Shown here one piece after another: positions 25,222-27,811 of a DNA stretch of 64,000 bases. Position numbers and translations under genes: made by a program. The stretch is from a virus. Where the stretch lies: positions 1 to 64,000 of the IMG/VR virus record IMGVR_UViG_3300020045_006384; one strand, given 5' to 3'. Under the pieces are notes generated by a model, which saw only the letters and a program-made list of their open reading frames with translations, did no database searches and was not told where the DNA came from. Each line of letters starts with the position of its first letter. The stretch's first letter is position 1.

Positions 25222-25508
25222 ACATATATTAAATTTAAATAAAACAATTATAAAATTACTTTATTTTGAATTTCAATTACTAACAGGAATATTAGTAATT
25301 GATAACAATAATCCTAGCTTACCTCAAATTTATGATAATCATAAATTATTAAGTATGTCTACAAATTTTGATGATTTTAAATCAATGAAAGATGCTGAAC
25401 CAGTTTCAGATATTAATCATTTAATTAAAGAAGAACCTTTAAGTGCTCAAGAAAAAATAGTAGTTAAAATAGGTGCGTAAAATAAATATTAACAAATAAA
25501 ATTTAAAA

Positions 25509-25568
25509 AGATGTTTAACAGCAAACAAAAACAATTATTTAGCGGAAATAAAGTAACACAAACATCTG
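25509..25568 (+). promoter_or_regulatory. Stem-ACAGCAA RNA unit covering the start codon (putative autoregulatory operator)
   Basis: AGATGTTT (25509-16, contains the ATG) + A + ACAGCAA ... AAACATCT (25560-67) + G; same architecture as the array units. Confidence 0.65.
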
Positions 25569-27172
25569 CTTTTGTTAGTGCAGGATTAAAAAATTCTGCA
25601 GAAACTGTATCAGGAAATGGTGCAAAAAAATATTCAACAACGGGTAATCCATTTGTTGATCAATTTGGTAAAATAGGTTCATATAAAGCACCAAGATCAT
25701 TTAATGATATATCTGCTGATTGTGAAATATTATGGACTAAAAATAAATTATTGACAGTAATGTTTATTATTTATTTAAGAGTTATAAATAGAATTGTTAG
25801 ATTCTGGGATAATACTTCTACAACAGTACCTCAAAAAGGTGGTGAAATGAAACATGAATCAATTATGAGAATGATTTGGTTACATATGAAATCTGAAGAA
25901 TCATTTTGGAAAAATATTCAATTATTTATTTTAGCTGGATCTTGGAAAGATATTATAACTATGTTACAATATGATTTAGTATATAATGGTTGGGATGATC
26001 GTAAACTTAATTGGAATAAATTTGGTGATTTAATATTGTCAGGTTTAAAAAATGAGAATACATCTGAATTACTTAAAAAGTATTTACCTCAAATTAAATC
26101 TAATAATCAATGTAAAACAGTTGAATCTCAAGCTGATAATTTAATTAGTAAATGGATTTGTTCATTATTATTTGATAATAAAAAAGAAAATTCTGGTTGG
26201 ACATATAAAAAATATAGACAACTTAAAACTTCTGGAACAGCACATCAATGGCAACAATTAATATCTCAACGTAAATTTGAAGAAATTGATTTTAGTAAAA
26301 TACATGGTAGAGCTTTAAATTTATTAGTAAGAAGTAAATTCTTATTTAATCAAAGTTTAAGTGAAAAATATGCTGAATGGGCTGTAAAACCTGAAACAGT
26401 AATTAAATACACTGGGTTTGTACACGAATTATTTGATAAATTACCTAAAACACTAGTTGGTTTAAATCAAGGTGAACAAGCTACTATTAATAAACAATTT
26501 GAAACATTGGTTAAAAAAGGTGGTGAACAATCTCAAACATCATTAATTGTTGTAAGAGATACTTCAGGTTCAATGAGTTCTGCAGCAACTGGTACAACAA
26601 TGTCTTGTTTTAATGTAGCAAAAGCATTAGCATTATATTTTAGTGAATTCTTAACAGGAAGATTTAAAGATGCTTTTATTGAATTTAATTCAGTTGCTCA
26701 AATGCATACATGGAAAGGTAATACTGTATTAGAAAAATGGTATAACGATCATTGTAGTTTTGTTGGTTCTACTAATTTTCAATCTGTTATAGATTTAATT
26801 TGTAGATTGAGATCTGAAGGTATAGAAGAATCTGAATTTCCAACAGGTATATTATGTATATCTGATAGTGAATTTAATCCTGCACAATTAGGTCAAACTA
26901 ATGTTGATGCAGCATTAATTAAACTAAGAAAAGTTGGATTTAGTGAAGATTATGTAGATAATTTTGTAATAGTTCTTTGGAACTTACAATCTAATGCATA
27001 TGGACGCGGTACTGGAGAAAAATTTGAAACATATGGTAATGTACCAAATGTATTTTATTTTAGTGGATATTCAGCATCAGTAGTGTCATTTCTTACAAAT
27101 AAGATAAACAATGCAGAAGAATTATTTAATTCTGCAATGAATCAAGAACTATTAAATCAAGTAGAGATTTAA
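25511..27172 (+). CDS. DUF2828-family Ro60/TROVE-like protein with C-terminal vWA domain
   Basis: SGNGAKKYSTTGNP.VD.F, R...KGGE, GSWKD, KYLP, MIDAS motif DTSGSMS, STNFQSV, ISDSEFN, VLWNL, SGYS. Confidence 0.8.
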   Translation: MFNSKQKQLFSGNKVTQTSAFVSAGLKNSAETVSGNGAKKYSTTGNPFVDQFGKIGSYKAPRSFNDISADCEILWTKNKLLTVMFIIYLRVINRIVRFWDNTSTTVPQKGGEMKHESIMRMIWLHMKSEESFWKNIQLFILAGSWKDIITMLQYDLVYNGWDDRKLNWNKFGDLILSGLKNENTSELLKKYLPQIKSNNQCKTVESQADNLISKWICSLLFDNKKENSGWTYKKYRQLKTSGTAHQWQQLISQRKFEEIDFSKIHGRALNLLVRSKFLFNQSLSEKYAEWAVKPETVIKYTGFVHELFDKLPKTLVGLNQGEQATINKQFETLVKKGGEQSQTSLIVVRDTSGSMSSAATGTTMSCFNVAKALALYFSEFLTGRFKDAFIEFNSVAQMHTWKGNTVLEKWYNDHCSFVGSTNFQSVIDLICRLRSEGIEESEFPTGILCISDSEFNPAQLGQTNVDAALIKLRKVGFSEDYVDNFVIVLWNLQSNAYGRGTGEKFETYGNVPNVFYFSGYSASVVSFLTNKINNAEELFNSAMNQELLNQVEI

Positions 27173-27182
27173 TAATAATATA

Positions 27183-27774
27183 AGGTGTAGAAACTGCAAA
27201 TCATATACATAAAACTATATAATTAGCAAACAAGCATCATCAGTTATAATAAAAATATAATAATTTTAAATCTTAACACTACACCTGTTAATCTCAAGAT
27301 TTAATTGTAAAAGTATAATAAAATTAACAACGATGATGCTTTTATAAGAATACTTACAGCAATTTATAAAGATCAATTTTGTAACTTGAAACCTTAATGT
27401 ATTCTGATAAAATGACTAACAGCAATTAACTTTGTAAAATCAACTTGTTGTCATCAGTTCGATTCTGATATTTCAATATGTCGTAAGACCAGATATTGAG
27501 ATTAGCTCAGTTGGTAGAGCGTAAGTCCACAAAACAAATAGTCATTTGACAAGATTAGTAACAGCAATATATATAAACACCAAACTTTTAATTTGACACG
27601 TTATATACTAATCTGATAAGTTTTCATACAGCAATATATAAATGCTTCTGGTGCCGTAATTGAGGTTCGAGTCCTACTAGTAGTGTAATGGATAACACGA
27701 CGTAAAAATGAAAACTGATAAATTCTCATACAGCAATTAAACTTTTTTATGGAAAAAAAACAAATTGAGAATTG
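27183..27774 (+). ncRNA. Tandem array of six Y-RNA-like stem-closed RNAs
   Basis: Units 27183-27287, 27347-27406, 27410-27548, 27552-27615, 27619-27717, 27721-27774. Each has a 7-9 bp terminal stem, then AC(A/T)GCAA, a variable cargo, the 3' strand and a G. Confidence 0.8.
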
Positions 27775-27811
27775 TGAATAAAATAAATATTAACAAATAA
27801 AATAAATAATT

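What the first reader, a model, noticed from the sequence alone, without database searches (positions are those of the whole stretch)
25509..25568. The Ro-like gene's start codon lies inside a seventh copy of the RNA motif (autoregulation)
Seen: AG-ATG-TTT + A + ACAGCAA...AAACATCT-G forms an 8-bp stem with the motif and 3' G, the same grammar as the array units, and it buries the AUG. Inference: free protein binds its own mRNA and represses translation until titrated by array RNAs. This also ties the motif to this particular protein.
Basis: partly seen in the sequence, partly recalled or inferred. Interest (0 to 1): 0.8.

Follow-up and report, generated by a model that had tools for sequence, protein, structure and literature searches.

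The report
Partner-RNA handle spanning Ro-like gene start
A phage gene for a Ro60-shaped RNA-binding protein carries, across its own start codon, a copy of the short RNA "handle" found on the small RNAs encoded just downstream. Distantly related phages keep this copy through silent-site selection, so the protein probably binds and throttles its own messenger, although no binding has been shown.

Summary
At 25509-25568, AGAUGUUU-A-ACAGCAA-35 nt-AAACAUCU-G repeats the grammar of the six downstream array units: AAG, a helix, ACAGCAA starting 9 nt in, a loop, the return strand, then CUG.

- **Family match.** A covariance model built only from array units of this and related phages scores the start-codon copy at 42.2 bits (E about 1e-6). 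The next non-array hit in the complete 100-kb genome scores 19 bits.
- **Conservation.** Sixteen other loci with 47-95% identical proteins keep the element.
- **RNA-level selection.** The rare codons AAC-AGC are kept (AGC is 2.8% of Ser codons here). ACA-UCU-G is identical in every locus although synonymous sites elsewhere are saturated. The codon after UCU always starts with G but encodes five different residues. One locus keeps ACAGCAA in another reading frame.
- **Limits.** The element was lost several times while the arrays persisted, so it modulates and is not essential. The helix alone is weak: predicted occupancy is about 10% here and 1-93% across loci.
- **Protein.** It is predicted to fold like Ro60 (TROVE plus vWA).

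The best reading is an autogenous translational operator that mimics the protein's partner RNAs (confidence about 0.6). Binding and repression are untested. This scan has noted handles at DUF2828 gene starts on other phage DNA. The handle also resembles Dictyostelium Class I RNAs.

The parts
25481..25502 (+). 22-nt AT-rich motif AATAAATATTAACAAATAAAAT, ending 8 nt before the AAG of the element. An identical copy lies at 27782-27803 before the next gene. It looks promoter- or leader-like.
   Evidence: The core TAACAAWTAAA sits 21-22 nt upstream of the ATG of at least four genes, and similar motifs precede the homologous genes. Its function is not tested.
25504..25573 (+). Start-codon copy of the RNA handle, with flanks as matched by the covariance model.
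   Evidence: 42.2 bits, E=1.4e-6, full-length match to model R1, which was built from array units only; 27.3 bits to Rfam RF01414, below the gathering score of 41.5.
25509..25516 (+). 5' strand of the clamp helix, AGAUGUUU. It contains the start codon at 25511-25513. A25508 completes the invariant AAG.
   Evidence: A(-3)A(-2)G(-1) is present in 17 of 17 element-bearing loci and absent from homologs without the element.
25518..25524 (+). ACAGCAA motif, read as codons AAC-AGC-AAA (Asn3, Ser4, Lys5).
   Evidence: AGC is 2.8% of Ser codons and AAC 12.5% of Asn codons in this genome. L004 keeps the motif in another frame, ACA-GCA-A (MFTAK).
25560..25568 (+). 3' strand AAACAUCU plus the conserved G. 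It is read as (C)AA-ACA-UCU-G(CU), giving Thr18-Ser19 and the first base of codon 20.
   Evidence: (A)CAUCU-G is kept in 17 of 17 loci apart from two wobble variants (AUAUCU in L003, GCAUCU in L098). Codon 20 always starts with G but encodes A, G, V, E or D. Elsewhere, 0 of 13 invariant Ser/Thr columns keep a single codon.
25511..27172 (+). Gene for a 553-aa Ro60-like protein (DUF2828/DUF7788, PHROG 850). Residues 1-36, which are encoded by the element, are modelled as disordered.
   Evidence: The AlphaFold model has pLDDT 81.6. Foldseek gives full-length matches to Ro60/TROVE structures 9kop, 9nep, 1yvp and 9l5y (prob 1.0, E about 1e-5).
27183..27287 (+). Array unit 1 (motif variant ACUGCAA, helix AGGUGUAG/CUACACCU, then G).
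27347..27406 (+). Array unit 2 (short unit).
   Evidence: 64.1 bits. RF01414 at 32.5 bits.
27410..27548 (+). Array unit 3, carrying a permuted tRNA-like (YrlA-like) body: T arm, then acceptor-like stem, then D arm.
   Evidence: RF02553 YrlA at 24.2 bits (gathering score 69), a weak match.
27552..27615 (+). Array unit 4 (short unit).
   Evidence: 76.9 bits.
27619..27717 (+). Array unit 5, with a second tRNA-like body.
   Evidence: 45.6 bits.
27721..27774 (+). Array unit 6 (short unit).
   Evidence: 49.4 bits. RF01414 at 29.7 bits.

Best explanation
The element is an autogenous translational operator built by mimicking the protein's own RNA partners.

The Ro60-like protein recognises a short 'handle': an AAG...CUG clamp helix followed at a fixed distance by single-stranded ACAGCAA. 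The small RNAs encoded directly downstream carry this handle and are probably co-transcribed with the gene. The gene carries one more handle whose 5' strand holds the AUG (nt -2 to +6) and whose ACAGCAA lies at +8 to +14, inside the ribosome's initiation footprint.

When protein exceeds its partner RNAs, free protein clamps this weak helix and blocks 30S binding. The phage has no Shine-Dalgarno sequences, so initiation should depend on an open start region. When partner RNAs are abundant they titrate the protein away and translation resumes, which keeps protein and RNA in balance.

Shown here: the element exists, belongs to the handle family, is confined to this gene's start, and is kept by selection on the RNA sequence. 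Inferred: that this protein binds the handle, that binding represses translation, and that array RNAs relieve it.
For: 1. **Family membership.** Model R1, built from array units only, scores the site at 42.2 bits, E=1.4e-6, the best non-array hit by 23 bits. It is the only non-array hit in the complete genome.

2. **Conservation across deep divergence.** The model finds the same element at the start codon in ten other loci at 26.7-47.5 bits (L002, L003, L004, L009, L010, L012, L021, L023, L026, L043). Direct inspection adds L006. A nucleotide scan adds five more (L078, L098, L127, L144, L148). On the protein tree the element is scattered over lineages about 1 substitution per site apart.

3. 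**Selection on RNA, not on peptide.**
- Rare AAC-AGC codons are kept.
- ACA-UCU is identical in all loci, whereas 0 of 13 invariant Ser/Thr columns elsewhere keep one codon.
- The following codon always begins with G but encodes five different residues.
- AAG before the AUG is invariant in 17 of 17.
- L004 keeps ACAGCAA in another reading frame.
- 3' strand changes are wobble-compatible (C to U in L003, A to G in five loci).
- The loop is free in length (19-43 nt) and sequence.

4. **Specificity.** Of 81 IMG/VR matches to the 16-mer 5' half, all 5 at DUF2828 starts have CAUCU-G downstream, against 0 of 76 elsewhere.

5. **Protein.** The predicted fold is Ro60/TROVE plus vWA. Handle arrays sit beside the gene in most non-gut loci and in distant phages.

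6. **Independent placement.** In Synechococcus phage B23 (24% identity) a handle ends 8 nt before the DUF2828 AUG. Earlier notes of this scan report the same theme in other phages.

7. **Weak helix and no SD.** Helix occupancy is about 10%, and no gene in this phage has an SD. Both fit a switch that needs protein to close.
Against: - No binding, footprint, reporter or expression data exist for any member of this family.
- The 5' strand is fixed by AUG-UUU, so there is no true compensatory covariation in the start-codon helix. Pairs 8-9 are often mismatched.
- The window's minimum-energy fold uses alternative pairings.
- The element was lost at least 3-5 times while arrays persisted (L001, L005, L014) and is absent from the large gut clade, so it is dispensable.
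- The peptide F-x-S-K-K survives in clades without the RNA motif, so part of the conservation could act on the protein.
- The homolog search used an N-terminal peptide pattern. This inflates the apparent frequency of the element.
Confidence: 0.6

Rival explanations
1. The copy is a processing or decay signal and not a translational operator. The same nuclease or RNP machinery that cuts the co-transcribed array at its CUG/AUAAG boundaries recognises the handle in the mRNA. It would either define the mRNA 5' end at AAG-AUG or cleave and destabilise the mRNA. Control would then act through RNA turnover.
For: The start-codon copy keeps the unit-boundary features: (AU)AAG upstream and CUG downstream. 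No promoter-like motif separates the gene from the array, so a single transcript that must be processed is plausible. Bacterial and phage Ro60/Y RNA complexes work with PNPase (PMC4201824; PMC12135203).
Against: No nuclease is identified. The inter-unit GAUAAG is only partly kept at the start codon (AAAAG in the window), and the sequence after CUG is not AUAAG. Exact placement of the AUG inside the helix in 17 loci is not required by this model.
Confidence: 0.18
2. The handle recruits the protein to its own transcript for a non-repressive purpose. Examples are cis-loading of newly made protein onto the co-transcribed array RNAs, or protection of the mRNA 5' end from host RNases or defence nucleases.
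For: The handle lies at or near the probable 5' end of the transcript, because the promoter-like motif ends about 8 nt upstream. Phage phiLo Ro60 with its Y-like RNAs attenuates host PNPase (PMC12135203).
Against: A bound 60-kDa ring over nt -2 to +14 would be expected to hinder initiation whatever its other role. There is no evidence for 5' end position or for protection.
Confidence: 0.12
3. The element is a relic or coincidence. An array unit was once fused to the 5' end of the gene, or the peptide MFNSK...TS happens to encode a handle-like sequence, with no present RNA function.
For: The peptide F-S-K-K and a T/K-S-G/A motif persist in clades without the RNA motif. The helix is weak. Repeated losses are tolerated.
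Against: Synonymous and non-coding positions are conserved far beyond background. L004 shows a frame-independent motif. The model gives E about 1e-6. In the IMG/VR control, 5 of 5 starts have the 3' strand against 0 of 76 elsewhere.
Confidence: 0.05

Closest known systems
Autogenous translational operators that mimic the protein's main RNA ligand: E. coli thrS operator (mimics the tRNA-Thr anticodon arm), ribosomal-protein operators (L1, S8, L20, S15), MS2/PP7 coat-protein operator on the replicase start, and T4 RegA and gp32 (from established knowledge)
   Same: An RNA-binding protein's own mRNA carries a copy of the protein's cognate RNA element over the initiation region. Free ligand RNA would compete, which sets the stoichiometry. 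As in MS2, the hairpin contains the AUG itself.
   Different: Here the whole operator lies from -3 into codon 20, so a coding sequence hosts it and its loop encodes a disordered N-terminal tail. The protein is a Ro60-like ring, not a ribosomal protein, synthetase or coat protein. Binding and repression are untested.
Ro60/Rsr with Y RNAs, including bacterial and phage YrlA (Rfam RF02553; Chen et al. 2014, PMC4201824) and Thermus phage phiLo Ro60 with Yrl1/Yrl2 (PMC12135203; PDB 9KOP, 9L5Y)
   Same: The predicted fold is the same, TROVE HEAT-repeat ring plus vWA. The gene sits beside small RNAs whose 5' and 3' ends pair, and some of these carry permuted tRNA-like bodies.
   Different: There is no sequence-level match to TROVE or to Ro60 in the PDB; the family is DUF2828/DUF7788. 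The handle (AAG-helix-ACAGCAA...CUG) is not the Y RNA Ro-binding helix. I found no paper describing a Y-RNA-like element in a Ro60 mRNA.
Dictyostelium Class I RNAs (Rfam RF01414; Kjellin et al. 2021, PMC7919456)
   Same: They are about 60 nt long. [quoted passage not shown] A conserved motif ending in ACAGCAA lies directly after the 5' strand. The termini are AAG...CUG(U). The start-codon element and array units align end to end with the Rfam model.
   Different: Scores of 27-32 bits are below the gathering score of 41.5. The phage helix is 8-9 bp against 6 bp. Class I RNAs are separate eukaryotic genes reported as unique to dictyostelids. Their known direct binder is the RRM protein Rnp1A/CIBP, not a Ro-like protein. 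Homology against convergence is unresolved.

Membership tests
Phage 'handle' RNAs that accompany DUF2828 genes (array family modelled by R1) | Terminal helix of 7-9 bp whose sequence differs between units but stays paired | tested here: met
   In the array units 94% of cells are paired and 8 of 9 pairs change on both sides (units were selected for a stem, so this is partly circular). The start-codon copy has 8 Watson-Crick pairs in the window and 6-8 in 17 loci.
Phage 'handle' RNAs that accompany DUF2828 genes (array family modelled by R1) | ACAGCAA beginning 9 nt after the first helix base, with AAG at the 5' base and CUG at the 3' base | tested here: met
   The offset is 9 nt in 16 of 17 loci (8 in L004). 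AAG and CUG are present in 17 of 17.
Phage 'handle' RNAs that accompany DUF2828 genes (array family modelled by R1) | Significant score to a covariance model not trained on the candidate | tested here: met
   42.2 bits, E=1.4e-6 in the window. 26.7-47.5 bits in ten other loci.
Phage 'handle' RNAs that accompany DUF2828 genes (array family modelled by R1) | Exists as a free, processed small RNA | not testable with these tools
   There are no transcript data. The start-codon copy is part of an mRNA and need not be released.
Autogenous translational operator (ligand mimicry) | The mRNA element resembles the protein's cognate RNA | tested here: met
   That the array RNAs are the cognate ligands is itself inferred, from conserved adjacency.
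Autogenous translational operator (ligand mimicry) | The element overlaps the ribosome-binding region or start codon | tested here: met
   The AUG is at helix positions 3-5 and ACAGCAA at +8 to +14.
Autogenous translational operator (ligand mimicry) | The protein binds the element and represses its own translation, and free ligand relieves repression | not testable with these tools
   This needs EMSA or a footprint plus reporter fusions.
Ro60/TROVE proteins | TROVE HEAT-repeat ring plus C-terminal vWA domain | tested here: met
   Foldseek gives full-length hits to 9kop, 9nep, 1yvp and 9l5y (prob 1.0, TM 0.37-0.61) for a model with pLDDT 81.6.
Ro60/TROVE proteins | Sequence-level match to Pfam TROVE or to solved Ro60 structures | tested here: not met
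   Pfam reports only DUF7788. A profile search of PDB sequences finds no Ro60. Relatives carry PF11443 DUF2828.
Dictyostelium Class I RNA (RF01414) | Rfam gathering score of 41.5 bits | tested here: not met
   27.3 bits for the start-codon element; 32.5 and 29.7 bits for units 2 and 6.
Dictyostelium Class I RNA (RF01414) | Helix joining the ends, conserved motif after the 5' strand, termini AAG...CUGU, length about 60 nt | tested here: met
   The alignment compared with the description in PMC7919456. The final U of CUGU is not conserved here.

The most novel reading that the evidence does not exclude
The in-frame handle is evolutionary evidence that DUF2828 (Ro60-fold) proteins directly read the AAG-helix-ACAGCAA-CUG handle. 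If so, the phage, giant-virus and bacterial handle RNAs and the Dictyostelium Class I RNAs would form one undescribed Ro/Y-like ribonucleoprotein family, and the amoeba RNAs would have a DUF2828-type partner. DDB_G0281243, an uncharacterised protein pulled down with Class I RNA DdR-21, is the obvious candidate to check. The start-codon operator would then be this family's built-in dosage control.
Probability: 0.3. Interest if true: 0.85.

Novelty: new variant of a known kind. Interest (0 to 1): 0.68.

Why it matters
**Link between protein and RNA.** The pairing of a DUF2828 protein with handle RNAs appears in no RNA catalogue and in none of the papers I could search. A handle written into the protein's own start codon, and kept by silent-site selection over deep divergence, is the strongest sequence-only evidence that this protein reads this RNA signal.

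**A simple experiment.** The finding gives a clean assay: a 70-nt RNA, one protein, and a translational fusion.

**Coding and RNA structure in one sequence.** It shows a coding sequence hosting a complete RNA operator whose loop encodes a disordered tail.

**Dictyostelium Class I RNAs.** The handle matches these RNAs, whose function has been unexplained since 2004. The same assay could therefore reveal what kind of protein reads them.

Tried and rejected
- **Catalogue scans found nothing.** Rfam at gathering thresholds and ARAGORN found nothing in the window.
- **Thermodynamic support is lacking.** RNAfold z-scores for the element are not significant (z = -0.2 for the 72-nt window element). 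The minimum-energy fold uses other pairings and helix occupancy is 1-93% across loci. Folding energy neither supports nor refutes the element.
- **Covariation in the start-codon helix is not obtainable.** The 5' strand is fixed by AUG-UUU. Only wobble changes and mismatches are seen.
- **Sequence searches do not link the protein to Ro60.** PDB and Pfam gave no Ro60 or TROVE match. Only the predicted fold does.
- **The Dictyostelium protein could not be checked.** No amoeba genome is held, two literature searches gave nothing, the Avesson 2011 paper is not held, and the ESM Atlas and the homolog search returned only viral relatives.
- **The sigma-70 promoter and terminator scan was uninformative**. 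A literature search for crAss-like promoter consensus found nothing usable.
- **Chance was considered and rejected**. A DNA-level signal was also rejected, because the motif is strand-specific and the helices of array units covary.
- **Five of six sampled distant phages** (Bacillus, Enterococcus, Klebsiella, Pectobacterium) have handles nearby but none on the start region. Only Synechococcus phage B23 does.

Full report
**1. The observation**

The window is 25% GC. It is the first 64 kb of a complete 100-kb phage genome with terminal repeats. Earlier notes of this scan call the phage a marine crAss-like phage. None of 62 long + strand ORFs has a Shine-Dalgarno sequence.

ORF 25511-27172 (+) encodes 553 aa.
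- A25509 G25510
- AUG 25511-25513 inside AGAUGUUU (25509-25516)
- A25517
- ACAGCAA 25518-25524
- 35 nt of loop
- AAACAUCU 25560-25567
- G25568

The six units at 27183-27774 all follow one grammar. The helix starts with A, usually as AUAAG. AC[A/U]GCAA begins 9-10 nt later. The loop is 29-113 nt. The return strand ends in U and is followed by G, usually as CUGAUAAG. None of the other 13 AC[A/T]GCAA sites in the window fits this grammar.

**2. Is it more than chance?**

I aligned 36 short array units from this phage and 13 related loci, leaving out every start-codon copy (A3), and built covariance model R1.
- With filters off, R1 scores 25504-25573 at 42.2 bits, E=1.4e-6. This is fourth, after the window's three training units. 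The next hit scores 19.2 bits, E=0.14.
- In the whole genome, only array units and this site match.

So the 'seventh copy' is a real member of the array RNA family, and it is the only copy outside the array.

**3. Related sequences**

The protein belongs to the DUF2828/DUF7788 family, PHROG 850 'RNA-binding protein'. Protein-guided scans of IMG/VR and metagenomes gave 58 loci.

The element is present at the start codon of L002, L003, L004, L006, L009, L010, L012, L021, L023, L026 and L043, whose proteins are 47-95% identical to the window's. R1 detects ten of these at 26.7-47.5 bits.

A nucleotide scan for the 5' half (AGATGTTYRACAGCAA) returned 81 matches:
- Five lie at the start of further DUF2828 homologs (L078, L098, L127, L144, L148), and all five have ...CAUCU-G 25-43 nt downstream.
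- None of the 76 matches elsewhere has CAUCUG.

On a protein tree built without the N-terminal columns, the element is scattered over lineages separated by about one substitution per site. The tree needs at least 3-5 gains or losses. The simplest history is an old element with repeated loss.

Loss is tolerated:
- Leptolyngbya phage Lbo-JY46 (L001), L005 and L014 have 5-6-unit arrays but no start-codon copy.
- L008 and L015 show decayed versions.
- The large gut clade (N-terminus MEFSKKKK) lacks the element.

The frequency among the sampled loci is inflated, because one search pattern was the N-terminal peptide itself.

**4. What is selected: RNA or peptide?**

Several independent signs point to the RNA.
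- **Rare codons.** Codons 3-4 are AAC-AGC. In this genome AGC is 2.8% of Ser codons and AAC 12.5% of Asn codons. AGC is kept in all but one locus with Ser at that position (L043 has AGU).
- **Saturated background.** In ten element-bearing loci, only 9 of 110 invariant amino-acid columns keep a single codon, and none of the 13 invariant Ser/Thr columns elsewhere does. The element's ACA-UCU is identical in all ten.
- **The 3' G.** The codon after UCU always begins with G yet encodes Ala, Gly, Val, Glu or Asp (7, 5, 3, 1, 1). The nucleotide, which is the handle's 3' G, is conserved and the residue is not.
- **Non-coding AAG.** The AAG before the AUG is present in 17 of 17 loci and absent from homologs without the element.
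- **Frame independence.** L004 keeps ACAGCAA in another frame (AUG-UUU-ACA-GCA-AAG, MFTAK) with the same helix.
- **Pairing-compatible changes.** Changes in the 3' strand keep pairing through wobble even when they change the residue (Thr to Ile in L003, Thr to Ala in L098).
- **Free loop.** The loop varies in length (19-43 nt) and sequence. It encodes residues that AlphaFold models as disordered (pLDDT below 50 for residues 1-36).

There are limits. The 5' strand is fixed by AUG-UUU, so no true compensatory pair exists. Pairs 1-6 are essentially invariant. Pair 7 is U-A in 12 loci and U-G in 4. Pair 8 forms in 10 of 17. The peptide F-x-S-K-K also survives in clades without the motif.

**5. Structure and energetics**

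The helix is AU-rich and closes a large loop. RNAfold does not choose it in the window. Its ensemble occupancy is about 10% in the window and 1-93% across loci. Array units are only marginally more stable than shuffled sequences (z = -0.8 to -1.9). The statement that the helix 'buries the AUG' is therefore not supported for naked RNA. It fits a helix that forms only when a protein clamps it.

**6. The protein**

There is no sequence match to TROVE or to solved Ro60 structures. An AlphaFold model from a 20-sequence alignment (pLDDT 81.6, pTM 0.79) matches Ro60 structures over its full length: 9kop, 9nep, 1yvp and phage phiLo Ro60 9l5y (prob 1.0, E about 1e-5, TM 0.37-0.61). 'Ro-like' holds at the fold level.

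**7. Mechanism**

The best explanation is an autogenous translational operator that works by ligand mimicry.
- The AUG sits at helix positions 3-5. The consensus helix base of array units is AGAU..., so a start codon fits with almost no deviation.
- ACAGCAA lies at +8 to +14, inside the 30S footprint.
- In an SD-less system, an open start region is what recruits ribosomes. This is established for Bacteroidota and is cited here from general knowledge.
- The gene and array have no promoter-like motif between them, whereas the same 22-nt motif precedes both this gene and the next one. They are probably made as one transcript. A feedback loop that matches protein output to free handle RNAs is therefore plausible.

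An independent placement supports a regulatory theme. In Synechococcus phage B23 (24% identity) a handle, AAGUUGAU-ACAGCAU...AUCAACUU-G, ends 8 nt before the DUF2828 AUG. Earlier notes of this scan report handles on the leader or RBS of DUF2828 genes in four other phages. I did not check those four, so they remain leads.

Rivals are a processing or decay signal shared with the array (0.18), recruitment for protection or cis-loading (0.12), and relic or coincidence (0.05).

**8. Comparison with what is known**

- **Functionally** the closest systems are mimicry operators: thrS, ribosomal-protein operons, the MS2 coat/replicase hairpin that contains the AUG, and T4 RegA.
- **Structurally** the protein-RNA pair resembles Ro60 with Y RNAs, including YrlA and phiLo Yrl1/2 (PMC4201824, PMC12135203). 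The handle is not the Y RNA Ro-binding helix, and I found no report of a Y-like element in a Ro60 mRNA.
- **Dictyostelium Class I RNAs.** The permissive Rfam scan matched units 2 and 6 and the start-codon element to RF01414 (32.5, 29.7 and 27.3 bits; gathering score 41.5). The published description matches the phage handle point by point: about 60 nt, a covarying helix joining the ends, a conserved motif next to the 5' strand, and termini AAG...CUGU (PMC7919456). That paper regards Class I RNAs as unique to dictyostelids.
- **Candidate amoeba partner.** A preprint version lists an uncharacterised protein, DDB_G0281243, among four proteins pulled down with a Class I RNA. I could not test whether it is a DUF2828 protein.
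- **Earlier scan notes.** This scan has already noted the protein-handle pairing and the Class I resemblance on other DNA.

**9. Verdict**

I rate it a new variant of a known regulatory kind, set inside an RNP family that appears to be undescribed. Interest is 0.68.

Noticed in passing
window 25481-25502 and 27782-27803; also 34581 and 31466 (-): An exact 22-nt repeat, AATAAATATTAACAAATAAAAT, precedes both the Ro-like gene and the gene after the array. Its core TAACAAWTAAA lies 21-22 nt upstream of the ATG of at least four genes, and similar TAAC...TAAA motifs precede the homologous genes in related phages. It may be a phage promoter giving very short leaders, which would put the handle at the very 5' end of the mRNA.
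   Followed up: partly
window 27348-27406, 27722-27774, 25510-25568: Sub-threshold but end-to-end matches to Rfam RF01414, Dictyostelium Class I RNA (32.5, 29.7 and 27.3 bits; gathering score 41.5). They share the same AAG...ACAGCAA...CUG design. The literature calls that class unique to dictyostelids.
   Followed up: partly
window 27445-27524 (array unit 3): A weak match to Rfam YrlA (RF02553, 24.2 bits, gathering score 69). The order T arm, then acceptor-like stem, then D arm is that of a permuted tRNA mimic. Unit 5 (27619-27717) has a second tRNA-like body.
   Followed up: partly
L062:1344-1402 (Synechococcus phage B23, MN695335.1): A handle with motif variant ACAGCAU (AAGTTGAT ... ATCAACTT-G) ends 8 nt before the ATG of the DUF2828 gene of a T4-like cyanophage. 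This is an independent placement of a handle on the initiation region.
   Followed up: partly
whole 100-kb genome (G000): None of 62 long + strand ORFs has a Shine-Dalgarno-like sequence upstream. Leaders are A/T-rich, which fits a Bacteroidota-type host.
   Followed up: no
L008:1501 and L015:1501: These are decayed versions of the start-codon element in close relatives of the window's gene. L015 has AUAGCAA and a broken 3' strand. L008 has lost AG/CU and the motif but keeps AUGUUU...AAACAU. They look like snapshots of loss.
   Followed up: partly
L035:257-428 and L041:2279-2423 (gut-clade phages): In the gut clade, which lacks the start-codon element, one or two handle units lie upstream or downstream of the gene. 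Most gut-clade loci show none within 1.5 kb, so their partner RNAs may lie elsewhere or differ.
   Followed up: no
alignment A3 (array units of 14 loci): Many short units carry a small internal hairpin with a 7-nt loop, consensus UUUUAAUUUGA region, reminiscent of anticodon loops. The helix base has a semi-conserved AGAU/AUCU.
   Followed up: no
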